Source: Anaerolineae bacterium (lineage in GTDB: Bacteria > Chloroflexota > Anaerolineae > S140-20). From it: a stretch of DNA of 41,791 nt. The stretch spans positions 1-41,791 of the forward strand of contig JALUTT010000076.1 in the NCBI GenBank assembly GCA_027021705.1. The letters run 5' to 3'. Under the pieces are notes generated by a model. The model saw only the letters and a program-made list of their open reading frames with translations. It was not told the DNA's origin and did not search any database. Numbering within the stretch: position 1 is the stretch's first letter; each line of letters starts with the position of its first letter. The position numbers and the translations under genes are program-made. Positions 25,191 to 37,108 of the stretch are shown here, piece after piece.

Positions 25191-25203
25191 GACGCATAGA
25201 AGC

Positions 25204-25232
25204 AAAAGGCGAGCCACTGCGGGCTCGCCCTT
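25204..25232. terminator. Hairpin between convergent genes, possibly a bidirectional terminator
   Basis: aaaa-ggcgagcc/ggctcgcc-ctt. Confidence 0.55.
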
Positions 25233-25260: not shown

Positions 25261-26376
25261 TCAGCCGCCGTGCGAAGCGAGGGGCTTCAAGAGCCGATAG
25301 CCGGCCAGAAAGATGAGCGCGGCCAACGAGACCACCCACACCATCAGCAGCCACTCGGTGAGCGTGGGGAAGTAGTCGAAGGTTAGGCCCAGGCCGGTGA
25401 AGGCGGTCTTCAGCCCCTCGAATTCGGGTACCACCAGGGCAGGAATGACCAGGTTCAGCTTGGTGCTGATGGCCGCCAGCGCGATCAGTCCACCGGCGGT
25501 GGCCAGGCCGGCCCGGCTGCGTCCGGCAAAGATGAGCAGGAGCAGCGGGATGAGCAGGCCCAGGCCCACGTGAACGAACCAGAAGACCCACCAGAAAGGC
25601 CCGAACAGGATCACCCGCAGGCTCTCCGACCGGGCGGGGATGCCGGCGTAGAGCGCGGTGGAGAACTCGGCCCACTCCAGCACCACCAGGCCCAACAGTA
25701 GGCCCAGAACCAGCCAGCGCAGCAGTTGACCGGCGTCCGCCTCCAGCCGGCCCAGCAGCACAGCCAGGAAGAGCACCAATGCCGCGCCGCTGAGCGCACC
25801 CTCCACCAGGAAGAGGATCGGCGTCAGCCCCGATTCCCACAGGGCCTGCGCACCCACCACGCCGAACAGTGAGCCCTCGGCCCCACCGAAGATGACCACC
25901 AGAATCAACCCCAGCAGGCTTAGGGTGCGCACCACCCCGGTCTCAACCTCTCTCTGCGTCAGATAAATGAGCACCAGCAGCAACACGCCGTAGATGACGT
26001 ACAGCCAGGCCATCACTCCCATCACCGAGGTGACGTTGGTGGAGAAGAAAAGTTTGAAAAAGCGGGCCGGATGGCCCAGGTCCAGCCAGATGGCCAGCAG
26101 ACCGCCGGCCAGGGCCGACAATGCCGTCAGCAAGGCGACGCGCCCCAGCGGCTGCAAAGCCTTCAAGCGGAAACCATAAGCCAGGGCCACGATCAGGTAA
26201 GCACCCACGGAGACGCCGATGAGCATGGCGTAGGCCGCTACCCACAGGCCCCAGGGCACATACGTGTTGTATGCCGCAACTGTGTGGCCGCCGGTGATGC
26301 GCTGCACCAGCCCCACCAGGCCGATGAGGAAGCCCACCACGGCCACAACCCAGAGGATTTTCTCAGCGGGTTTCAT
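25261..26376 (-). CDS. NrfD/PsrC-family membrane anchor, quinol-interacting subunit (C)
   Basis: [23 protein letters not shown]-terminal YFPTLTEW; many TM helices. Confidence 0.9.
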
Positions 26377-27056
26377 TTGGCTCGTCCTCCATCTCGCTGC
26401 AATGAGGCAATGCCGGCTGCCTCGGTTGTGTTTTCAGCAAGCACCGTCATCAGCCACTCCAGGTCGGCCTCGACGGCCGCCCGGGTAAAGTCGGCCAGCC
26501 CGGTGAAGAACGGATCGGCGCTGGCGCCTCCCAGCGCGGCGCAGAAGCGTGGCAGCCACGGCAAGAGGTGTTGCTGGATGAAATCGTGGCTGGCCTGGAG
26601 CGCCTTCTCCGTCTCCGCACTGCCTCCCGCAGCCCGCGCCGCCAGGTAGGCCAGGAAGCCCAATTCCAGGGCGATGTGATCGTCGGGCAGATGCACGTCG
26701 CTGGCGGGCACGGCCTGCCAGTCCAGGTAGACGCGGCGGACAGCTACCGCGGCCGGTCCCATCAACCGGCCGTCGTGCAGATAGTACGAGGCATAGGGCG
26801 GGGCCGGGGTCAGGCCGGGACCCTCCAGCAGCCGCGTCATCTCCGTGTTCAGCACCTCCAGGGCCGCCCGCCGGAAGCCATGGCCCTGCAAGCGGGTCTG
26901 CATCCGGCTCAGTCCTGGGGCCAGCGGCGAGGCCGGCGCGATCTCCAGACTCACCACCGCCTCCAGCACCGGCTCCCGCAGCGGATAGCTGTACAGCGCA
27001 CGCAGCAGGCTGTACAGCCCGACCCGTTCCTGCAACCTCTGCCGATCCATCATCAT
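26373..27056 (-). CDS. TorD/DmsD-family molybdoenzyme maturation chaperone (D)
   Basis: PPYASYY, PDDHIALELGFL, FIQQHLLPWLPRF; ATGA overlaps with both neighbours. Confidence 0.9.
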   Translation of the reverse strand: MMMDRQRLQERVGLYSLLRALYSYPLREPVLEAVVSLEIAPASPLAPGLSRMQTRLQGHGFRRAALEVLNTEMTRLLEGPGLTPAPPYASYYLHDGRLMGPAAVAVRRVYLDWQAVPASDVHLPDDHIALELGFLAYLAARAAGGSAETEKALQASHDFIQQHLLPWLPRFCAALGGASADPFFTGLADFTRAAVEADLEWLMTVLAENTTEAAGIASLQRDGGRAK

Positions 27057-29875
27057 ACCTTCTTCACCTTGACGATCATGTCGCCGTACAGCGACATGCC
27101 CATAATGGGTGAGTGGTGATCCGGATCCACCAGCGCGTTGGCATTGGGTGTCACATCGCGGAAGTCGTAGGTCTTGCCCAGGCCGGGGCTGAAGCGACCA
27201 CCGCCGCCGAAAGGCAGGCGCAGCACGCCTGGCCGAATGGTCTCCACCAGATAGACCTTGCCGCGCGTCGTGTGGCCCAGGGGGGTCTCCAGCTCCACCA
27301 GGTCGCCCGTCTTCAGGCCCAGCTTCTCGCCGTCGGCGCGGTTCATCTGGATGACGCCGATGGACCAGGTGCCCTTGGGGATGCGCACCTTGCGGCCCGT
27401 GGGCTGCGGCCCGTTCTCGCCGATGACTATCTCATCCACCACCCGCTCGTCGTTTAGGGGCACCCACAGGTCCTCCGTGGGGATGCGGCCTAGCCAGTCC
27501 ACCATCTGCGTGCCGGACATAGCGTGATGCACCCGGCCGGAGATGACCTGGAAGGGGTACTCCTCGCGGTACTTGGCGTAGTCCGGGTTGGTGTACGGGT
27601 TCCACAGCGTCTCGAACCAGTAGAAGGTCTTGGGATACTTCTCCCACCCCAGTTCCTGGATGCCGGGCGGAGCCTCGCCGGCCTCCTCGATGAGCTTGTT
27701 GTACTTGGCGTAGCGGCCCTTGCGCTTGCCGTCTAGGTCGTAGTCCCAGGTGAAGTCGACCTTCTTGCTGTCGGTCTTGAGCACACCGCCGTTCTTGAAG
27801 CGGTGCCAGCTCATAGGCCACACCGCCACGCCGTGGTGCTCGCGCAGCCACTGCACGGTGACGTATTCGCCGATGACCTTCTTGCCCTCATCGTCTATGG
27901 TGACGTTGCCGGCCTCCAGCGAATCGGGCGTGCCGTACAGCTTGTAGTTAACCGGCAGGTGCGGATAGGGCAGCGGCTCGCCAGTATGGGCCCGCCCCGG
28001 CGCCTTCTTCAGGGCTTCGTTCCAGAAGTCCTCCTCGGTGGGATACTTCTCCCAGAAGTCCTCCGGCTTGATGTCCGGGTCGCCCTTCTCGTACAGCTTA
28101 CGGGCCAGCGCCCAGGCGATGTCGTACTGCGTCTTCGACTCGTACAGCTTATCAATGACGAAGTCGCGCAGGTAGAGCAGTTGATGGCTGGGGTAGATGT
28201 CCGACAGGCTCATGCGCTCCAGGTAACTGGCTTCGGGCAGCACCACATCGGCGTACAAGCCCGTCTCTAGGAAGGGCGTATCAATGTAAACCACCAACTC
28301 CACCCGGTAGTCCTCGCCATCTTTGGCCGTCAGGGCCTCGATCCACTTGTCGGTGTTGGAGCCGGTGATGACCGGATTGCCGGTGCGGATGAAGAAGGCC
28401 TTAATGGGGTACTTGTGCCCGCGGAAGGGGCCGTACTTCAGCTCCACACCCTCCAGGAAGCGGCTGGGGTAATCGCCTACCACGTCGTCCCAGGCGGCGG
28501 TCCACTTGCCGAAGAGGTCCATATGCAGTTCCTCGACCTTGCCGGTGACCTCCTGGCCGTTGATGACGCGCGTCACCTCTCGCTTGAGGAAGTGACCGCC
28601 CTTGGCTCTGCCGCCCTTGTCCGACTTGACCAGCTCGGTATCAATGGCGCCGCCGGGTACCTCCATGTTGCCGGTGATGACGTTGAGCGCGGTGCCGATG
28701 ATGGAAGCCACGTAGCCGTTGTAGTGGTGGCCGATGCCGTTCATGCCCCACACCCAGGCCGCCGGCTTGGTGATGCCGAAAGTGTGGGCCAACTCGGCGA
28801 TGGTCTCGGCCTCGATGCCGGTGCGCTCGGCGGCCCACTCCAGGCTGAAGTAGTTCAGGCCGTTGATGGGATCCGTCTTGTCCCACCAGCTCTTGAAGGC
28901 GGCCTCGAACTCCTCCCAACCCCGGCTGTACTCCAGGAAGGACCAGTCAATGTAGCGCCGGAAGGGGTCGTCATCGCTGTGGTTCTCCAGGATGTAGCGC
29001 AGCACCGCCGCGAACAGGTCGGGGTCGGTGCCGGGGCGGATGGGGATCCACTGATCGGCCTTGGTGGCCGTGTTGGAGAAGGCCGGATCAATGACGATGA
29101 TCTTGGCGCCAGCCAGCTTGGCCTCCACTGTGCCCCGCGATTCGTAGACGATGCGGGTAGCGGTGAAGGGGTTCCAGCCGGCGTAGACGATGAGCCGCGT
29201 GCGATACTTGTAGTCGTTCTTCAGGCTGCCGTCAGGCTGGCGCACCAGCACCGGCCGCATGATGTCCGGCTCCACCCGCTTGCCGCCAAACATGAGCTTG
29301 GGGCCGTGGCGGCGCGGGGTGTCGCAGATGGCGCCGTGCTCCACCGTATGAGGCGTGCCAAAGGCACGGAAGAGGTAATAGTACGGGTCGCGATCGGTGA
29401 CGTCACCGCAATCCATGATCACCGCTTCGGCACCGTACTTTCGCTTGATCTCCAGCAGCCTGTCGGCGATGAAGTTCAGCGCCTCCTCCCAAGAGACGCG
29501 CCTGAACTTGCCCTCGCCCCGCTCGCCGACGCGGATCATAGGATATTTGATGCGGTTGGCGTTGTAAACCATTTGTAAGCCCGAAGCGCCTTTGGCGCAC
29601 AGCACGCCGGAATTGAGGGGCGCGTAGGGATTGCCGTAGATGGCCGATGCCACGCCGTTTTCCACCCGCACCGCGATGCCACACTCGGCGGGGCACATCA
29701 CGCAGGCGCTGTAGACGGTCTTGACTTCGGCCTGCTGCAACCGGCGGGCCTCGGCCCGGTCGATCTGCTTGAAGCCGCTCCCCAGCGCGGCCAACGCGGC
29801 CAGCCCGCCCGCCGCAGCACCGCCGGCCTTCAGGAAATCACGGCGCGAGAGTTGTTTGTCCTTCCAGTCAATCAT
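27053..29875 (-). CDS. Tat-exported Mo/W-bisPGD oxidoreductase catalytic subunit (A), Psr/Arr-like clade; candidate AnrA-like
   Basis: Tat motif SRRDFLK; FS0 motif C-x2-C-x3-C-x27-C-x-K; RIKYPMIRVGERGEGKF; FGTPH...HGAIC (putative Cys Mo ligand); ADVVLPEASYLER; C-terminal molybdopterin-binding domain. Alternative start GTG 29878. Confidence 0.9.
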   Translation of the reverse strand: MIDWKDKQLSRRDFLKAGGAAAGGLAALAALGSGFKQIDRAEARRLQQAEVKTVYSACVMCPAECGIAVRVENGVASAIYGNPYAPLNSGVLCAKGASGLQMVYNANRIKYPMIRVGERGEGKFRRVSWEEALNFIADRLLEIKRKYGAEAVIMDCGDVTDRDPYYYLFRAFGTPHTVEHGAICDTPRRHGPKLMFGGKRVEPDIMRPVLVRQPDGSLKNDYKYRTRLIVYAGWNPFTATRIVYESRGTVEAKLAGAKIIVIDPAFSNTATKADQWIPIRPGTDPDLFAAVLRYILENHSDDDPFRRYIDWSFLEYSRGWEEFEAAFKSWWDKTDPINGLNYFSLEWAAERTGIEAETIAELAHTFGITKPAAWVWGMNGIGHHYNGYVASIIGTALNVITGNMEVPGGAIDTELVKSDKGGRAKGGHFLKREVTRVINGQEVTGKVEELHMDLFGKWTAAWDDVVGDYPSRFLEGVELKYGPFRGHKYPIKAFFIRTGNPVITGSNTDKWIEALTAKDGEDYRVELVVYIDTPFLETGLYADVVLPEASYLERMSLSDIYPSHQLLYLRDFVIDKLYESKTQYDIAWALARKLYEKGDPDIKPEDFWEKYPTEEDFWNEALKKAPGRAHTGEPLPYPHLPVNYKLYGTPDSLEAGNVTIDDEGKKVIGEYVTVQWLREHHGVAVWPMSWHRFKNGGVLKTDSKKVDFTWDYDLDGKRKGRYAKYNKLIEEAGEAPPGIQELGWEKYPKTFYWFETLWNPYTNPDYAKYREEYPFQVISGRVHHAMSGTQMVDWLGRIPTEDLWVPLNDERVVDEIVIGENGPQPTGRKVRIPKGTWSIGVIQMNRADGEKLGLKTGDLVELETPLGHTTRGKVYLVETIRPGVLRLPFGGGGRFSPGLGKTYDFRDVTPNANALVDPDHHSPIMGMSLYGDMIVKVKKV

Positions 29876-29886
29876 CACCCACCTCC

Positions 29887-30792
29887 CTAAACCAGGTAGA
29901 AGACTTTGGGATCAGTGCCCATGTCTTCCTTCAGCCGCATCACGTTGGGCTGGCCGATGAGCTCAGAGACCAGGCTCTTGGGGTCGTTCATATCGCCGAA
30001 GTAGGTAGCGCGGCCCATGCAACTGAGGGTGCAGGCCGGCAACTCCCCACGCTCGATGCGGTGGAGACAGAAGTGGCACTTGCGGGCGTTGCCAATGGGC
30101 GATCCGCCGTCGGCCCGCGTGCGATTCTCACCATACTCGGGCGATGGCAGCAGTTCATAGGGCTGGCGCTCGCCCCCCTCGAAGTCGCCGTAGAAGTAGC
30201 CCGAATCGAAGGAGCGGGCTGAGTAGGGGCAGGCTGTGATGCAGTAGCGGCAGCCGATGCACTGGTCGTAGTCAATGACCACGATGCCATCGGCACGCTT
30301 CCAGGTGGCGTGTACCGGGCACACAGGCACGCAGGGCGGATCCTCGCATTGCATGCAGGGCCGGGGCACGAAGCGCCGAGCCACGTTGGGATAGGTGCCG
30401 TGGGTCTCAGTCATCACCGGCCGGTAGGTGACGCCCGGCGGCAATTTGTTCTCGGTGATACAGGCCACGTTGCAGCCGTTGCAGCCGGTGCACTTGCGCA
30501 GATCAATGACCATAGCCCATTTGCGCTGCTCCACCGGCTTCTGCAGGGCGCGCTGCAGGTCCTCCATCATGCGCTGGACGGGATGTTCGCCCTCCACCGG
30601 CTCCGGCAGTTCCACCACAGGGACCAGCCCCTCGGCCTGGGCGGCCGGTCCAGCACGCACCGGCTCGGTGTCGCCCAGCACAGCCGGCGCCACCAGGCCG
30701 GCGAAGACCACGCTGGCGAACTTGCCCAGGAAGGACCGGCGCGACTCCTCGCTGGCGAGAGGGCCGACCTCCGAGCCTCTGTCCAGAGACAT
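29887..30792 (-). CDS. Four-cluster Fe-S electron transfer subunit (B; NrfC/TtrB/PsrB-like) with its own Tat signal
   Basis: [48 protein letters not shown]...PACTLSC. Confidence 0.92.
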
Positions 30793-30797
30793 AGCGA

Positions 30798-30914
30798 CGC
30801 CTCCTTTCTGCTATTGGGTCCAGGGATGACCTCCCAATCAACATTGTAGCAGAAAGGAGGCGGGCATACAACTAGGGAAGCAACGGGTTCGAACCTGGGG
30901 AAAATCCTAGTTTC
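30798..30914 (-). promoter_or_regulatory. Internal promoter of the BADC genes (TTGTAT-N17-TACAAT) with 16-bp inverted repeat and putative response-regulator sites
   Basis: -10 at 30843-30848, -35 at 30866-30871; repeat arms 30798-30813 and 30847-30862; CTAGG/CCTAG-like motifs upstream of the -35. Confidence 0.6.
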
Positions 30915-31556
30915 CTACGTCACTATCCCCCGCTCGATGGCAAAGCGCACCAGTTCAGCCCGGTTGGAGAGGCCCAGCTTGCGCATCAGGTTGGCGCGGT
31001 GGAAGTCCACCGTCTTGACGCTGATGAACAGGGTCTCGGCCACCTCCTGGTAGGTCTTGCCCTGGGCCAGCAGCACCAGCACCTCCCGCTCCCGCTCTGT
31101 CAGTGTGTCGTAGGGGTCGGCCGGCACGCCGCCGGCCTGCCTCCGCACATCGTCCACCAGCACGCCGCTCACACGTGGGTCCAGGTAGGTGCCGCCAGCG
31201 TATACCTCGCGGATGGCGCGCACCAGGCTGTCGTCCGGCGCCCGCTTGAGCACATAGCCGGCCGCGCCAGCCTTCAAAGCGGGCAGCACATACTCCTTGT
31301 TCTCGTGTTGAGTCAAGATGAGAACGCGCGTTGCTGGATAGGTGCTGACGATCTCGTGGGTGGCCGCCAGCCCGTCCATGCCCGGCATACCGATGTCCAT
31401 CAACACCACGTCGGGCTTGAGGGTCTGCACCTGAACCAACGTCTCGTGGCCGTCGGCCGCCTCGCCGACTACCTCGAAATCCGAATGTAGCTGCAGCAGC
31501 GCCCGGATGCCGGCCCGCAGGATAGCGTGATCGTCGGCGATCAGGATACGAATCAT
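30915..31556 (-). CDS. NarL/LuxR-family response regulator (R)
   Basis: [53 protein letters not shown]. Real start is ATG 31556, overlapping the kinase stop. Confidence 0.93.
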
Positions 31557-33898
31557 ATGTTCCCCTCCTTCAATGGCAGCGTGACGCACAACCGGGTGCC
31601 GCGGCCGGGTTCGCTCTCGATGACGAATTGACCACCCAGCAATGCCGCCCGTTCCTGCATGCCCAGCAGCCCCCAGCCACGCCGGCTGTTGTCCTCGGCC
31701 AAAGCCTTGCCTGGGTTGAAGCCGACGCCATCGTCCTGGATCTCCATGCACGCCTGCCGCCCCTCAACCCGCAGGCGGATGTGCACTTCATGCGCCTGAG
31801 CGTGCTTGCCGATGTTGGTGATGGCCTCCTGCCCGATGCGGAACAGGGCCGTCTCCACCTCGGAAGACAAACGCCGGGTCTCCTCCGGCACGTCCAGGAC
31901 GACCTCGATGCCGCGCTTCTGCAAGCGCTCCTCAGCGTACCAGCGCAGGGCCCGGCACAACCCCAGATCATCCAGCAGGCTTGGGCGCAGGTCGTAGATG
32001 ACCTCCTGCAGCTCCTTCACCGTATCGCTGGTTGAAACGCGCAGCCGGTCCAGCAGCTCAGGAGCCATATCCGGAGCCTGGCTCAAGGCAGTGCTGACCG
32101 CGTTCAGGCCAAAGACGAGGGCATTCAGGGACTGGCCGATGCCATCGTGCAGCTCACGGGCGATGCGTTGGCGCTCTTCTTCCTGAGCGCGAATCACCTG
32201 TGCCAGCAGTTCGCTGCGCACCCGTTCCTTCTGGCGCAGCTCCTCCCACAGACGGGCGTTCTCCAGCGCGATGCCGATCTGCTGGCCCACTGCCGCCAGC
32301 AGGTTCATCTCCGCCGCGTCGAAGGCTCGCAGGCTGATCGCGGCCACGCTCAACACGCCCAGCGTGCGTCCTCGTGCCTGCACAGGCACTGTGGCGTGGC
32401 ACATAAGGGGCTGCCCGCTGGTGTCCAGCGCATGTTGGGCCAGACACCCTTCCCCTGCCGTCGCGTCCACAATGCGCGGCTTGTTCTCCCGCAGCACCTG
32501 GCCACACGGGCACTCGGGAAAAGCGAAAGCCTCGGACCTTGCTGCCAGTCCCTGAGAAGCCGCCAGATGGGGCTGCCCGTTCTCCGTGAGCACAAAGATC
32601 CAGCCGGCGGTCAGGTCCAGCGCACTCAAGATCTGATGCAAGGCACGCTTGAGGATCTCGTCGGCTGGCAAGGGTTCTCCAACGGCTGAGGCCACAGCGT
32701 TGAGGGCCGTCAACTCCCGATTGCGCCGACGTAGCTCCTCCTCGCGTGCCTTGCGCTGGGTAACGTCGCGCGTAAACCAGGCCAAAGCGCGTCGGCCCTG
32801 GTACTCAACCAGGGTGCCGGTCGTCTCCAGAATGCGCGTCCGACCGTGGCGATCTACCATGGTGAATTCACCGGGCATCTCAGCGCGATCGCCTGAGCGG
32901 ATCGCTTGCCACGCGGCCCGCGCCGCGGCCAACGAGTCGGGGTGCAGGATACTGGCAGCATTGGCCCCCAACAGTTCCGCCGGTTCAAAGCCGGCCAGGC
33001 GAGCGAAGGCCCTGTTGACGAACAGGAACGTGCCCTCATCGGGACCTTCATCGCAAATCAGCGCAATTCCCTCGCCCACTGTGCCAGCGGCCGTCAACAG
33101 GTCCCGATAGCCGGCCTCGGACACCTGCAACTGCTGGATAGCCGTCTGGATGTCGCTGGCCATCTGGTTGAAAGCCGCGGCCAGGTCCCCTACCTCGTCG
33201 CCAGGCGGCAGATCAATGCGCTCGTCCAGATGGCCCCGGCCCAACCGCTGTACGCGCCGCGTCAGCTCGACCAGCGGGTAGGTGGCCAACCGGCTGAAGC
33301 CGTAGGCCACCGCTGCCGCCAGCAGGCAGCCGACCGCGGTCAGCGCCAACACGAAGCCCGTTACCTGGCGTTGCACGGCAACAATGCGCGCCTGGCTGAT
33401 CCCCAGGTGGACCTCAGCCGGCAGTCCATTCAACGGCCGATAGCCGAAGTCGCGAACCAGACCGTATTCAGTGCGGAGCAGGAGCCCCTCGCCGGGCTGC
33501 TCACGGTCGGCCGGCAGGACCTGCAGCAAGTCGGCCGGAAAGCCGTCGGGAAAGGTGTGGATGATGGGAGTATCAGGGCCAAAGGCGAAGGCGTACACCA
33601 CGCCCTGATTGCGGCGCACGGCTGCGTTGACCGCCTCTTGCACCGCGGCCAGGTCCCCCTCCACCAGAGCGTTGGCCAGGCTCTCGCCCAGGGCCAGGGT
33701 CAGCGTCTGCCCGGAGGTAATTGATTCAGCGCGCAGGTTTTGCAACAGGACCTGGTTGATGGCTCCGGTGGTGATGAAGCCGGCCGCCACCACAATGACC
33801 ATCACAGCCAGCGTCACGCGAGTGGTCAGCCGCCGCGGCAGCCAGCGCTCCATACGCCGCAGTATCTTCCCGGCCCAGCTCAGCCCAAGTCCAACCAT
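31553..33898 (-). CDS. Membrane sensor histidine kinase (S): 2 TM, HAMP, PAS, GAF, HisKA_3, HATPase
   Basis: [62 protein letters not shown]. Start inferred at ATG 33898 just after the X stop. Confidence 0.9.
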
Positions 33899-33899
33899 C

Positions 33900-34823
33900 T
33901 CACGGCTCCAGCAGACCGACATCGCGCGCAATACGGCGCAGGTCTTCGTAGTCGGCGTCGCGGGCGAGGACAAACCCACGAGGCATCTCGGAACGCTCCC
34001 AGTGGTAGAGGGCCGCGGCATCGGTGCCAGTGGGGTCCAGAGCCAGCAGTGCCTGCTGCACGATGGCCACCGTCTTGGCCGGCGCCGCCGGCCCGGCCAC
34101 AATCCCGCTGGACGGATAGGGTTCCGACAGAGCCAGGATGCGCACCAACCCGCGGGCAGCCAGGTCGCTCGCCAGCGTATCCTGGAGGCCGCCGGCATCG
34201 AAGCGGCCGCTGGTCACCGCGTTAGCGGTTGCCGCGTGGGAGCCGGTGTAGGTGTAGGCACGGAGGTCCGCGAGGGTGAGGCCCGCCTGCTGCAGCATCA
34301 GGCGGGGAATGAGATGTCCCTGGGTGGAGTTGGGTGCGCCAAAGGCGAAGGTGCGGCCTCGCAGGTCGGCAATCGTGCGCAACTCGCTGGCCGGCGGCAC
34401 GACGATAGCGGCCCGATAGGTATCTTCCCCTTCAGCGTTAAGCCCGCGAACCAGGATGCGAGCGCCGCAGCGGTGATACGCCTGGAGATAGGAGACGGTG
34501 CCCACAATGGCAAAGTGGACCCTGCCGCTGCACAGGTCGTCCACCACATTGCCATCGCGCGGCGTGACATACAGGCGGTAGGTGAGCCCGGTGCGCGCCT
34601 CCAGCCAATTGAGGAGCGAGGCGTTCATGCGCACGTCCTCTTTGGGCTCCAGCCGGCGGTCGAAGCCAAAGGCCCACACGCCGTCCTCCCGTACCGGCGG
34701 CCACACCACCTCGGTCAACAAATTCTCCGAGAGATGGACCGAGGTGGTCGGCTCGCGAGCACAGGCTCCCAGCGGGGAAAGCAACGCCAGTATGGACAGA
34801 AGCAACCACAATCTACGGATCAC
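33900..34823 (-). CDS. PhnD-like phosphate/phosphonate/oxyanion-binding lipoprotein (X), sensory accessory
   Basis: C-terminal 307 aa of the 700-aa ORF; lipobox [48 protein letters not shown]; no ABC permease or ATPase nearby. Confidence 0.85.
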
Positions 34824-34872
34824 GTGGTGGATTTTACTATGCTTTGTATGCTCCGTCCAGTGAAGAAATCCG

Positions 34873-35626: not shown

Positions 35627-35780
35627 CAAGGGGCAAGGGGCAAGGGGCAAGGGGCAAGGGGCAGGGGGCAGGGGGCAAGGGGCAAGGGGCAGGGGGCAAG
35701 AGGCAAGGCGCAAGGGACAAGGGGCAAGGGGCAGGGGGCAAGAGGCAAGGCGCAAGGGACAAGGGGCAAGGGGCAGGGGA
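35627..35780. repeat. G-rich 7-bp tandem repeat (CAAGGGG and variants) x22
   Basis: 154 bp; contains an exact 42-bp higher-order duplication at 35676-35717 and 35718-35759. Confidence 0.95.
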
Positions 35781-35827: not shown

Positions 35828-37108
35828 ATGAGCGACCAAGCGACCACCCGACCAAGCGACCACCCGACCACCCGACCACCCGACATTGACGAGCAGCTGG
35901 CGGTCCTGATGCGGGGGGTGGAATACGGCGACCCCCAGATTCGGGAGCATATGGAGCGGGAGTTACGGGAACGGCTGGAGGAGTCGGCCAGGACCGGCAC
36001 ACCTCTTCGGGTCTACTGCGGCTACGATCCCACTGCTCCCGACCTGCACCTGGGTCACACGGTAACGATGCGCAAGCTCCGCCAGTTTCAAGAGTTGGGC
36101 CACCAGGCCATCTTCGTCATCGGCTCCTTCACTGCCCTGATCGGTGACCCCTCCGACAAGGACAAAGCCCGCCCCCGCCTCTCCTTCGAAGAGGTGATGG
36201 CCAACGCCAAGACCTACGTGGACCAGGCCTTCCGCATCCTGGACCCCGAGAAGACGGAAGTGCGCTACAACCACGAATGGCTTTCCCGAGTCACCTTGGA
36301 GCAGTTCATCGAGATGGCCGCCAACTTCACCGTGCAGCAGTTTCTGGCTCGGGACAACTTCGCCAAACGGTACGCCAAAGGCGACCCCATCTGGCTCCAC
36401 GAACTCTTCTACGCCCTGATGCAGGGGTACGACGCGGTGATGCTGCGGGCCGACGTGCAGTTGGGCGCGACGGAGCAGCTCTTCAACCTGCTGGCAGGCC
36501 GCAAGCTCCAGGAGTACTTCGGCCAGCGCCCCCAGGTCGCCCTAACGCTCCCCATCCTGGTGGGAACCGATGGCCGGCTGCGGATGTCCAAGAGCACCGG
36601 CAACTACATCGGCATCACCGAGCCGCCCGAGGAGATGTACGGCAAGGTGATGAGCATTCCTGACGAAGCGATGATGAACTACTACAACCTAGTAACCCGC
36701 TTCACCCCCAACGAGATCGCCCAGATCGAAGCGGCGCTGAAGTCGGGCCGGCTGCATCCCCGGGATGCCAAGATGAAGCTGGCCCGCGAGATCGTGGAGA
36801 TCTTCTACGGCCCCGAGGCCGCCCAGGCTGCCGAGGAGCACTTCCGCACCGTCTTCCAGGCGCGGGAACTCCCCCCTGATATGCCCAAGGTCTACCTCAG
36901 CGAGCCAGTCAACATCGTGGACCTGTTGGCCCGGCTGGAGTTGGCCCGGAGCAAGAGCGAGGCTCGCCGGCTGATCCAGCAGGGCGGGGTGCGCCTAAAC
37001 GGCAGGCGGGTCAAGGACATCGAGCAGATTGTGGAGATCAAAGAGGAGACGGTCCTGCAGGTGGGGAAGCGGCGCTTCATCCGGTTGCTGCCGGCCTTGC
37101 CCTCCTGA
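35828..37108 (+). CDS. tyrS: Tyrosine--tRNA ligase
   Basis: [32 protein letters not shown]-terminal S4 domain ([14 protein letters not shown]...QVGKRRF). Confidence 0.96.
35833..35884 (+). repeat. 8-bp tandem repeat (CGACCAAG/CGACCACC) x6.5 within the 5' end of tyrS
   Basis: Six full units (48 bp) directly after ATG 35828. Confidence 0.9.

What the first reader, a model, noticed from the sequence alone, without database searches (positions are those of the whole stretch)
25261..34823. Complete X-S-R-B-A-D-C respiratory molybdoenzyme locus: candidate antimonate (Anr-like) or novel oxyanion reductase in a probable Chloroflexota genome
Seen: seven tightly coupled co-directional genes encoding a PhnD-like lipoprotein with no transporter, a HisKA_3 kinase, a NarL regulator, an Fe-S subunit, a 940-aa Tat molybdoenzyme, TorD and NrfD. 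Known: X-S-R three-component sensors accompany arsenic and antimony oxidoreductases (aioXSR, arxXSR), and the order XSRBAD is, as I recall, that of the anr antimonate reductase of Geobacter sp. SVR. Seen: the catalytic subunit has DCGDVTDRD where ArrA has (R/K)GRY and ArxA has GRGWG, and HGAICDTPRRHG around the putative Cys ligand. Inference: it is neither Arr nor Arx and may support Sb(V) or another oxyanion respiration in a lineage usually considered fermentative.
Basis: partly seen in the sequence, partly recalled or inferred. Interest (0 to 1): 0.8.

Follow-up and report, generated by a model that had tools for sequence, protein, structure and literature searches.

The report
Antimonate-reductase-type respiratory operon in Chloroflexota
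This seven-gene cluster encodes a membrane-bound molybdenum enzyme with its own three-protein sensor, and its catalytic subunit belongs to the same tight protein family as enzymes in the two bacteria known to breathe antimonate, so it is most likely a further member of that recently described family.

Summary
Seven co-directional, tightly coupled minus-strand genes (25261-34823) encode a PhnD-like binding protein (X), a HAMP-PAS-GAF-HisKA_3 kinase (S), a NarL-type regulator (R), a four-cluster Fe-S subunit (B), a 941-aa Tat-exported molybdoenzyme (A), a TorD chaperone (D) and an NrfD anchor (C).

A reaches no curated cut-off for ArrA, PhsA or TtrA. It lacks ArrA's RGRY motif. It belongs to a sharply isolated clade of ~940-aa proteins (100/100 support). 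That clade includes a Geobacter sp. SVR protein (58% identical) and a Desulfuribacillus stibiiarsenatis protein (57%). These are the two organisms for which the antimonate reductase AnrA is reported. I could not read the AnrA papers, so equating those proteins with AnrA is an inference.

X-S-R linkage recurs across phyla, including one archaeon. A conserved 16-bp palindrome lies upstream of B wherever the NarL-type R is present.

Verdict: a new member of the Anr kind. Its variant features are an NrfD quinol anchor and a NarL-type regulator with a candidate operator. The substrate is untested, and no Acr3/ArsB pump was found in the genome.

The parts
33900..34823 (-). X: PhnD/PtxB-like periplasmic oxyanion-binding protein with an N-terminal signal and Cys21 (probable lipoprotein); proposed ligand sensor
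   Evidence: Pfam Phosphonate-bd 1.3e-52. Nearest solved relatives are PtxB 2.7e-20, ArrX 4.4e-10 and AioX 1e-4. No transporter gene is adjacent.
31553..33898 (-). S: sensor histidine kinase (781 aa) with two TM segments around a ~130-aa outer loop, then HAMP, PAS, GAF, HisKA_3 and HATPase_c
   Evidence: Pfam. Start ATG 33898 lies one base after the X stop. Hydrophobic segments at residues 29-47 and 179-197.
30915..31556 (-). R: NarL/LuxR-type response regulator (213 aa); its ATG overlaps the S stop codon by 4 bp
   Evidence: Response_reg 7e-30 and GerE 1.9e-21. Coordinates.
30895..30910 (-). 16-bp palindrome CTAGGATTTTCCCCAG in the R-B gap: candidate operator of R
   Evidence: The motif CTRGGR-N5-CCYAG was found upstream of B in 15 of 20 Chloroflexota-type loci. 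That includes 7 of the 12 loci not used to derive it. The own genome (5.19 Mb) holds 43 sites. No motif was found in L015 and L020, which show no XSR.
30843..30877 (-). Half-site-like CCCTAGTT (30870-30877) and -10-like TACAAT (30843-30848): candidate internal promoter of BADC
   Evidence: Read from the sequence and from similar arrangements in relatives. Consensus resemblance only.
29887..30792 (-). B: electron-transfer subunit with four [4Fe-4S] motifs (16 Cys) and its own twin-arginine N-terminus (SRRSFLG)
   Evidence: Pfam Fer4_11. NCBIfam DsrO/TtrB/ArrB-like, all below cut-off. Nearest solved relatives are ArrB 1.3e-44 and PsrB 7.2e-44. Cys motifs counted.
27053..29878 (-). A: 941-aa Tat-exported Mo/W-bisPGD catalytic subunit of the Anr-type clade. 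FS0 motif C59-x2-C62-x3-C66...C94, Mo-ligand Cys185, signature GDVTDRD and EHGAICDTPRRHGP
26373..27056 (-). D: TorD/DmsD-family Tat-proofreading and cofactor-insertion chaperone (cytoplasmic)
   Evidence: Nitrate_red_del 9.2e-29. TorD 67.9 bits, below cut-off.
25261..26376 (-). C: NrfD/PsrC-type integral membrane subunit (~10 hydrophobic segments); proposed quinol dehydrogenase and anchor
   Evidence: Pfam NrfD 1.7e-24. Hydropathy. No solved relative by sequence at E<=0.01.
25199..25229 (-). GC-rich hairpin GGCGAGCC-CGCAGT-GGCTCGCC followed by TTTTGCTTC: likely terminator of the operon
   Evidence: Read from the sequence. The consensus scan did not list it.
34831..34859 (-). Promoter-like site TGGACG-17-TAAAAT just upstream of the X start
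   Evidence: Consensus scan: 4 sites found in the region against 1.1 expected. Not evidence of function.

Best explanation
This is an Anr-type respiratory oxyanion reductase operon, here in the form anrXSRBADC.

Proposed enzyme mechanism (inferred from homology):
- A and B each carry a twin-arginine signal.
- The TorD-like D loads A with its cofactor and proofreads it.
- The A-B complex is exported to the outer face of the membrane.
- There A-B docks on the NrfD-type C.
- C oxidises menaquinol.
- Electrons pass through the four Fe-S clusters of B and FS0 of A to the Mo-bisPGD centre, which is ligated by Cys185.
- The centre reduces an oxyanion, most probably antimonate Sb(OH)6- to Sb(III).

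Proposed regulation (inferred): the PhnD-like X binds the oxyanion outside the cell. X signals through the outer loop of kinase S to the NarL-type R. R binds the palindrome at 30895-30910 and activates a BADC promoter in the R-B gap.

Shown here: the gene content, the domain make-up, the clade membership, the conserved motifs, the conserved X-S-R linkage and the conserved palindrome.

Inferred: the substrate, the direction of electron flow, X-S signalling and R binding.
For: 1. Clade membership. A search of 1.84 billion 50%-identity representatives shows a steep score drop: one full-length family representative (P0154, 59%, 1269 bits), then a 47% sister (813 bits), then 37% (402 bits).

2. Geobacter sp. 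SVR. P0154's 90% cluster contains the 948-aa Geobacter sp. SVR protein BCS51964.1/WP_173201954.1, on a 4,717,360-bp contig. That length equals the published SVR genome length (PMC8032467, whole text). This protein is 58% identical and 74% similar to A over its full length.

3. D. stibiiarsenatis. A 942-aa protein from this organism is in the same family and is 57% identical to A.

4. Trees. All 37 family rows form one clade, with SH-aLRT 100 and 100/100.

5. Literature, read as passages. [quoted passage not shown] SVR. SVR reduces Sb(V) without known As(V) respiration (PMC13284237). D. stibiiarsenatis 'employed AnrA' (PMC12183865).

6. Active-site motifs. G158, D159 and D162 of GDVTDRD, and nearly all of EHG(A/S)ICDTPRRHGP, are invariant across 29 aligned members from bacteria and archaea; V160, T161 and R163 are conserved in at least 90% of them.

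7. X-S-R linkage. X, S and R lie next to B-A-D in 13 of 20 close loci. X lies there in 4 of 9 distant loci, one of them archaeal. The regulator is of three different classes across these loci.

8. Cognate promoter elements. The palindrome is present in 15 of 20 loci. A -24/-12-like element is present in 3 of 3 loci that have a sigma-54 regulator.

9. Fold and relatives. The model of A (pLDDT 84.5) is closest to ArrA and PsrA. B is closest to ArrB and PsrB. X is related to the sensors ArrX and AioX.

10. Habitat. The DNA is held by runs labelled hydrothermal vent metagenome in a study other than the possible source.
Against: - I could not read the two primary AnrA papers. That the SVR and D. 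stibiiarsenatis proteins compared here are the published AnrA is therefore inferred, as is the published gene order.
- 57-58% identity does not fix the substrate.
- The own genome (94.9% complete) shows no Acr3 and only a 32-bit ArsB-like match. The usual Sb(III)/As(III) efflux pumps were not found.
- The clade is spread over many phyla and habitats where antimony is not known to be abundant. That may point to a commoner natural substrate.
- The gene is rare in the phylum: 4 of 301 genomes sampled, including this one.
- C has no solved relative by sequence.
- The SVR-like loci I could inspect (L022, L024, L030) lack an NrfD gene. The electron input may therefore differ from the described system.
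Confidence: 0.6

Rival explanations
1. The protein family is the same, but the physiological substrate in this organism is another oxyanion, such as an arsenic, selenium, tellurium or sulfur species. Sb(V) reduction would then be one activity of a broader-specificity clade, or one special to the two isolates.
For: The clade is very widespread. It occurs in Chloroflexota, Nitrospirota, Thermodesulfobacteriota, Bacillota, Pseudomonadota, Bacteroidota, Verrucomicrobiota and three archaeal MAGs. A is more conserved than PNPase between the same genomes (62-81% vs 50-67%). No Acr3/ArsB pump was found in the own genome. One locus (L025) has a phosphate-selective porin next to the operon. X is closest to phosphite/phosphonate binders and to the arsenate sensor ArrX.
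Against: The only organisms with functional information that hold clade members are two Sb(V) respirers. The pocket motifs are invariant across the clade, which argues for one shared substrate. ArrA's arsenate-binding RGRY is replaced by CGDV.
Confidence: 0.3
2. It is a polysulfide/thiosulfate reductase (Psr/Phs type), as some automatic annotations of relatives state.
For: PhsA is the best NCBIfam match (257 bits). PsrA is the best solved match by sequence (3.4e-40). The architecture is A-B-NrfD. JGI names some relatives 'thiosulfate reductase/polysulfide reductase chain A'.
Against: The PhsA score is far below the 694-bit cut-off and covers only residues 9-595. The genome has a much better PhsA-like protein (621 bits, also below the cut-off). 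The clade is separated from Psr/Phs-like representatives by long, fully supported branches. A dedicated oxyanion-binding X sensor is conserved with it.
Confidence: 0.04
3. It is a divergent respiratory arsenate reductase (Arr) or an anaerobic arsenite oxidase (Arx).
For: ArrA is the best structural match (Foldseek E 1.8e-43, TM 0.74 on the target). ArrB is the best match of B. X is related to ArrX. The His-x3-Cys spacing around the Mo ligand is as in ArrA.
Against: The ArrA equivalog score is 163 against a 1600 cut-off. RGRY is replaced by CGDV. SVR is reported not to respire As(V) (PMC13284237, passage). No Arx reference sequence was available to me.
Confidence: 0.04

Closest known systems
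AnrXSRBAD antimonate respiratory reductase of Geobacter sp. SVR (Kambara et al. 2024; paper not readable here, operon name recalled and given in earlier AI note e1-1405561)
   Same: The catalytic subunit is 58% identical and 74% similar over its full length to the SVR clade member. Both carry GDVTDRD and EHG(A/S)ICDTPRRHGP. The order X-S-R-B-A-D, the Tat signal and the TorD chaperone match. Loci whose A is ~80% identical to P0154, the representative of the SVR protein's 90% cluster (L024), show X + kinase + regulator + B + A + D.
   Different: Here an NrfD-type gene C follows D. R is NarL/GerE-type with a palindromic operator, whereas the SVR-like loci I could inspect have a sigma-54 activator. 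S carries PAS-GAF-HisKA_3. B has its own twin-arginine leader. The first FS0 ligand is Cys here and Asp in the SVR protein.
Sb(V)-induced DMSO-reductase-family candidate of Desulfuribacillus stibiiarsenatis MLFW-2 (Abin & Hollibaugh 2019; not readable here)
   Same: A 942-aa member of the same clade, 57% identical to A.
   Different: I could not confirm that this protein is the published locus BHU72_07145. Its gene context was not seen.
ArrAB(C) respiratory arsenate reductase (Shewanella sp. ANA-3, PDB 6CZ7)
   Same: Closest solved fold for A and closest solved relative of B. Both are periplasmic Tat-exported Mo-bisPGD enzymes with a Cys ligand.
   Different: 18% identity in the structural alignment. 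RGRY is replaced by CGDV. A is about 130 residues longer. The ArrA model score is a tenth of its cut-off.
PsrABC polysulfide reductase (Thermus thermophilus, PDB 2VPW)
   Same: The same three-subunit plan: a catalytic subunit, a four-cluster Fe-S subunit and an NrfD quinol-oxidising anchor.
   Different: A is 941 aa against 765 aa. It sits in a separate clade and has a dedicated X-S-R sensor.
AioXSR / ArrXSR three-component oxyanion sensors
   Same: A PhnD/PtxB-like binding protein without a transporter, next to a kinase and a regulator that control a molybdoenzyme operon. X matches ArrX (4.4e-10) and AioX (1e-4).
   Different: X is closer to PtxB (2.7e-20) than to ArrX or AioX. The regulator class here is NarL-type.

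Membership tests
Anr (antimonate respiratory reductase) | The catalytic subunit falls in the same clade as the enzymes of the Sb(V) respirers Geobacter sp. SVR and D. stibiiarsenatis | tested here: met
   58% and 57% identity over full length. One clade of 37 rows with 100/100 support. A single 50%-identity representative covers the family.
Anr (antimonate respiratory reductase) | The SVR and D. stibiiarsenatis proteins compared here are the published AnrA and BHU72_07145 | not testable with these tools
   The primary papers are not held. No accession was found in the supplements I searched. Accession and name searches found nothing.
Anr (antimonate respiratory reductase) | Gene order X-S-R-B-A-D with a PhnD-like X, a kinase, a regulator, an Fe-S subunit, the catalytic subunit and a TorD chaperone | tested here: met
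   The order is present in the window. The published order itself is recalled and given by an earlier AI note. The extra C gene and the NarL-type R are differences.
Anr (antimonate respiratory reductase) | Sb(V)-dependent induction and Sb(V) reductase activity | not testable with these tools
   No RNA run holds the locus.
ArrA (respiratory arsenate reductase) | Reaches the NCBIfam equivalog NF041714 cut-off | tested here: not met
   163.3 bits against a cut-off of 1600.
ArrA (respiratory arsenate reductase) | (R/K)GRY arsenate-binding motif (the motif definition is recalled; the ANA-3 sequence was seen in the alignment) | tested here: not met
   ArrA LLRGRYSHIN aligns with MDCGDVTDRD.
ArxA (anaerobic arsenite oxidase) | XGRGWG motif at the same position (recalled) | tested here: not met
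   The aligned segment reads DCGDVT. No Arx reference sequence or model was available, so clade placement relative to Arx was not tested.
PhsA/PsrA (thiosulfate/polysulfide reductase) | Reaches the NCBIfam equivalog NF012032 cut-off | tested here: not met
   256.8 bits against 694, covering residues 9-595 only. Another protein of the genome scores 620.8.
TtrA (tetrathionate reductase) | Reaches the NCBIfam equivalog NF011567 cut-off | tested here: not met
   91.6 bits against 1750. The genome's TtrA-like protein (536.5 bits) is only 27-28% identical to A in local segments.
NaoABC (nitrate-dependent Sb(III) oxidase) | A NapA-like catalytic subunit with a Rieske subunit | tested here: not met
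   No Rieske gene is in the cluster. The description of Nao comes from PMC11521347, sections 16-17.

The most novel reading that the evidence does not exclude
The clade may be an ancient, unusually conserved, cross-domain metalloid-oxyanion reductase whose natural substrate range goes beyond antimonate. The Chloroflexota form would then be a distinct quinol-coupled, energy-conserving ABC complex. It would be governed by a previously undescribed NarL-type regulon marked by the CTRGGR-N5-CCYAG palindrome. That would extend metalloid respiration to hydrothermal-vent Chloroflexota and to archaea.
Probability: 0.2. Interest if true: 0.6.

Novelty: new member of a known kind. Interest (0 to 1): 0.42.

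Why it matters
Antimonate respiration has been tied to a specific enzyme in only two isolates. This locus would extend that genetic potential to Chloroflexota from hydrothermal-vent samples.

The comparative data also show three further points:
- The same enzyme clade, with invariant pocket motifs, occurs in many bacterial phyla and in archaeal MAGs.
- The clade travels with a dedicated binding-protein sensor.
- It has been wired to at least three regulator classes and to optional NrfD anchors.

This yields concrete, testable handles: signature motifs for annotation, a candidate operator, and a candidate ligand sensor. These could be used to map antimony cycling in metagenomes. They could also be used to ask whether Sb(V) is really the natural substrate.

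Tried and rejected
- Reading the primary AnrA papers failed. Kambara 2024 by PMC id and DOI, and Abin & Hollibaugh 2019 by DOI, are not held.
- One paper search failed on term syntax.
- Searches for accessions and names (DSY4615, ACL19266, BCS51964, anrXSRBAD and others) found nothing relevant.
- The supplements of PMC11521347 could not be read. Those of PMC13284237 and PMC12183865 hold no AnrA accession.
- NaoABC was considered because a Symbiobacteriaceae protein is in the clade. It was rejected because Nao is NapA-like and has a Rieske subunit.
- The D. hafniense DCB-2 paper describes an outlier 'phsABC plus chaperone' operon, Dhaf_1206-1209, next to arsC and an arsenite pump (PMC3306737, passages). 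The DCB-2 clade member is ACL19266.1. I could not map that accession to a locus tag, so this stays an unverified lead.
- L032 (45% identity, a delta-proteobacterial MAG) is full of frame breaks and was not used.
- Homologue searches with A and with the L024 protein did not list the SVR protein among the best 120. It was found only through cluster membership.
- No RNA holder was listed for the locus.
- The own-genome paralogue check found that the 929-aa and TtrA-like proteins are only 26-28% identical to A.
- C has no solved relative by sequence.
- My first sigma-54 pattern had a wrong spacer and found nothing. It was corrected.
- The quick tree placed the archaeal rows outside a bacterial clade. 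The careful tree leaves the base of the family unresolved, so I make no claim about the root or about the direction of transfer.
- The last paper search (antimonate with Chloroflexi terms) listed 12 of 152 papers. None of the 12 holds 'antimonate'. This is no proof that Anr in Chloroflexota is unpublished.
Full report
**Observation.** The window is contig C76 of a 5.19-Mb, 66% G+C genome in 183 contigs. Seven minus-strand ORFs fill 25261-34823. Pfam assigns them as follows:
- X (33900-34823): Phosphonate-bd.
- S: HAMP, PAS, GAF, HisKA_3 and HATPase_c.
- R (30915-31556): Response_reg plus GerE.
- B (29887-30792): 4Fe-4S dicluster families.
- A (27053-29878, 941 aa): Molybdop_Fe4S4, Molybdopterin and Molydop_binding, with an SRRDFLK twin-arginine leader.
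- D (26373-27056): the TorD/NarJ family.
- C (25261-26376): NrfD.

S most likely starts at ATG 33898 (781 aa), one base after the X stop. S/R, A/D and D/C overlap by 4 bp. B-A are 8 bp apart. Only R-B has a real gap, of 122 bp. B has 16 Cys in four cluster motifs and its own SRRSFLG leader. C has about ten hydrophobic segments. S has two, flanking a ~130-residue outer loop. The neighbours are housekeeping genes (an S9 peptidase, TyrRS, PNPase, ClpB and others). There is no ABC transporter.

**What A is not.** No NCBIfam equivalog is reached: PhsA 257 bits (cut-off 694, N-terminal 595 residues only), ArrA 163 (1600), TtrA 92 (1750). By sequence, the nearest solved structures are PsrA (3.4e-40) and ArrA (5.7e-37). 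In the HMMER alignment, ArrA's LLRGRYSHIN lies opposite MDCGDVTDRD. Cys185 of VEHGAICDTPRRHGP lies opposite the Mo-ligand Cys of ArrA and PsrA. An AlphaFold model built on a 29-sequence alignment (pLDDT 84.5, pTM 0.86) is closest to ArrA (E 1.8e-43) and PsrA (5.2e-41).

**What A is.**
- The homologue search listed its best 120 proteins (750-977 aa, mostly ~940). All are at least 59% identical to A. They come from Chloroflexota, Aquificales, Rokubacteria, Sulfuricella, Symbiobacteriaceae, Moorella, Desulfitobacterium hafniense and Thermodesulfovibrionales.
- The genome scan added three archaeal MAGs at 55-60% identity.
- Against 1.84 billion 50%-identity representatives, the family collapses to one full-length representative (P0154, 59%, 1269 bits). 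Next come a 47% sister of 1096 aa (813 bits) and then 37% (402 bits).
- P0154's 90% cluster contains a 948-aa Geobacter sp. SVR protein (BCS51964.1/WP_173201954.1) on a 4,717,360-bp contig. That is the published length of the SVR chromosome (PMC8032467, whole text).
- A is 58% identical and 74% similar to this protein, end to end.
- A search seeded with the D. hafniense member listed a 942-aa Desulfuribacillus stibiiarsenatis protein. It is 57% identical to A.

**Trees.**
- The quick tree had 49 rows, with outgroups that included three Mo enzymes of the own genome. It gives the 37 family rows SH-aLRT 100.
- The careful tree had 40 rows. I dropped nine long or outgroup rows: own_929, own_TtrA-like, own_PhsA-like, P0233, P0228, P0225, P0217, P0220 and P0226. 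It gives the family 100/100.
- In the careful tree, A sits in a 17-row subclade (99/99) and the SVR protein in a 10-row subclade (100/99). The D. stibiiarsenatis protein is unresolved at the base. I therefore claim clade membership only, not a root.

**Link to antimonate.**
- Passages in PMC13284237 call AnrA an Sb-specific respiratory reductase. They cite Kambara et al. 2024 on Geobacter sp. SVR and say that SVR reduces Sb(V) without known As(V) respiration.
- Passages in PMC12183865 say that D. stibiiarsenatis uses AnrA. [quoted passage not shown]
- I could not read the two primary papers. That the two proteins above are the published AnrA is therefore an inference.
It also appears in an earlier, unchecked AI note on another genome (e1-1405561). 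The catalytic subunit in that note shares short words with the L024 and L022 members of this clade.

**Conservation.** In the 29-sequence alignment (57-91% identity to A, mean column identity 67%), G158, D159, D162 and E180-H181-G182-x-I184-C185-D186-T187-P188-R189-R190-x-G192-P193 are invariant. Between the same pairs of genomes, A is more conserved than PNPase (62-81% against 50-67%). That fits strong constraint and lateral spread. In a sample of the phylum, 4 of 301 genomes (this one included) hold A at E<=1e-150.

**Synteny.**
- Among the 20 close loci (L001-L020), X, S and R lie next to B-A-D in 13. Ten are co-directional and three are divergent or downstream. An NrfD gene follows D in 17.
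- Among nine more distant loci, X is present in four (L021, L022, L024, L030).
- The regulator is a sigma-54 activator in L022, L024 and L030. In the Nitrososphaerales MAG L021 it is a receiver fused to an ArsR-type HTH.
- NrfD is present in three of the nine, in the order B-C-A-D.
- The X-kinase sensor is therefore the constant partner of the enzyme. The regulator class and the membrane anchor are exchangeable.

**Regulation.**
- The R-B gap holds a 16-bp palindrome, CTAGGATTTTCCCCAG (30895-30910). It also holds a half-site-like CCCTAGTT (30870-30877) and TACAAT (30843-30848).
- The pattern CTRGGR-N5-CCYAG occurs upstream of B in 15 of the 20 close loci. That includes 7 of the 12 loci not used to derive it.
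- It is missing in L015 and L020 (no XSR nearby), in L009 (no XSR in view), and in L006 and L018 (truncated).
- The own genome has 43 such sites in 5.19 Mb, so about 0.004 would be expected per 450 bp.
- In the three loci with a sigma-54 regulator, a TGGYA-N6-TTGC element lies upstream of B (3 of 3). It is absent in L025, L027 and L029 (0 of 3).
- These are sequence patterns, not binding data.

**Other parts.**
- X is nearest to PtxB (2.7e-20), a phosphonate binder, ArrX (4.4e-10) and AioX (1e-4).
- B is nearest to ArrB and PsrB.
- C has no solved relative by sequence.
- A GC-rich hairpin followed by a T-run lies just after C (25199-25229).

**Organism and habitat.**
- PNPase from the window is closest to that of a Thermoflexus MAG (67%) and two other Chloroflexota MAGs (61% and 60%).
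- The genome also encodes NuoG/F/H, a selenocysteine FDH-N, a PhsA-like enzyme next to an ExtP-like cytochrome b, a QrcB-like protein, a TtrA-like enzyme and a 929-aa unassigned Mo enzyme. It is a respirer, not a plain fermenter.
- No Acr3 was found, and only a 32-bit ArsB-like match. ArsA-family ATPases are present.
- The DNA is held by runs labelled hydrothermal vent metagenome. Besides the possible source run, two runs of another study hold 0.96 and 0.91 of the sampled words. No RNA holder was listed.

**Verdict.**
- The locus is best read as an Anr-type respiratory reductase operon with an added NrfD quinol anchor and a NarL-type regulator, and with antimonate as the most probable substrate (about 0.6).
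- The main rival (about 0.3) is that this clade, or this member, serves another oxyanion.
- The Psr/Phs and Arr/Arx readings fail their membership tests.
- It is a new member of a known, recently described kind. What this analysis adds is the breadth and tightness of the clade, its signature motifs, the modular sensor-regulator wiring and a candidate operator.

Noticed in passing
window 35627-35779: A perfect-period heptamer array, (CAAGGGG) x 22, lies in the ~1-kb non-coding stretch between the X start and tyrS. On the minus strand it produces the long spurious Pro/Leu/Cys-rich ORFs seen.
   Followed up: no
window 35831-35884: Short tandem repeats (periods 8, 16 and 24) lie inside the 5' end of tyrS. 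They encode the [15 protein letters not shown]-terminal extension.
   Followed up: no
window 30800-30813 and 30847-30860: A perfect 14-bp inverted repeat, CCTCCTTTCTGCTA / TAGCAGAAAGGAGG. Its second arm covers the Shine-Dalgarno sequence of B. In read-through transcripts from R it could mask the ribosome site. It was not seen in the relatives I looked at.
   Followed up: partly
A residue 59 (window ~29702-29704) and alignment A1: The first ligand position of the N-terminal Fe-S motif is Cys in 12 and Asp in 17 of the 29 clade members. The two forms are scattered over the tree. It is Cys here and Asp in the Geobacter sp. SVR and D. stibiiarsenatis proteins.
   Followed up: partly
L002 6277-6983, L003 6299-7064, L005 3767-4458: In three Anaerolineales/Chloroflexota loci, a ~0.7-kb insert with its own ORF sits between R and B. 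It is flanked by hairpin-like repeats (CAACTCAnTGAGTTG) and looks like a small mobile element. The palindrome upstream of B is retained. The ORF was not annotated.
   Followed up: no
G000:C2 (L076 3826-8811): The own genome has a PhsA-like molybdoenzyme (620.8 bits, cut-off 694). It lies next to an 812-aa protein whose C-terminal part matches the ExtP b-type cytochrome of selenite/tellurite reduction operons.
   Followed up: no
G000:C82 (L081 6325-9516) and G000:C99 (L080 5959-8748): The genome holds a 1063-aa TtrA-like enzyme (536.5 bits, cut-off 1750) and a 929-aa unassigned Mo enzyme. Both are only 26-28% identical to A.
   Followed up: partly
P0212 (1096 aa, metagenome): The sister group of the clade (47% identity) carries an extra ~220 N-terminal residues. 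Their nature was not examined.
   Followed up: no
L025 1251-2456: In a Lentimicrobiaceae MAG, a phosphate-selective porin (Porin_O_P) and a Crp-type regulator precede B-C-A-D instead of X-S-R.
   Followed up: no
L021 327-9178: A Nitrososphaerales MAG carries X, a HisKA kinase, a receiver fused to an ArsR-type HTH, and then B-C-A-D. This is an archaeal version of the whole module.
   Followed up: partly
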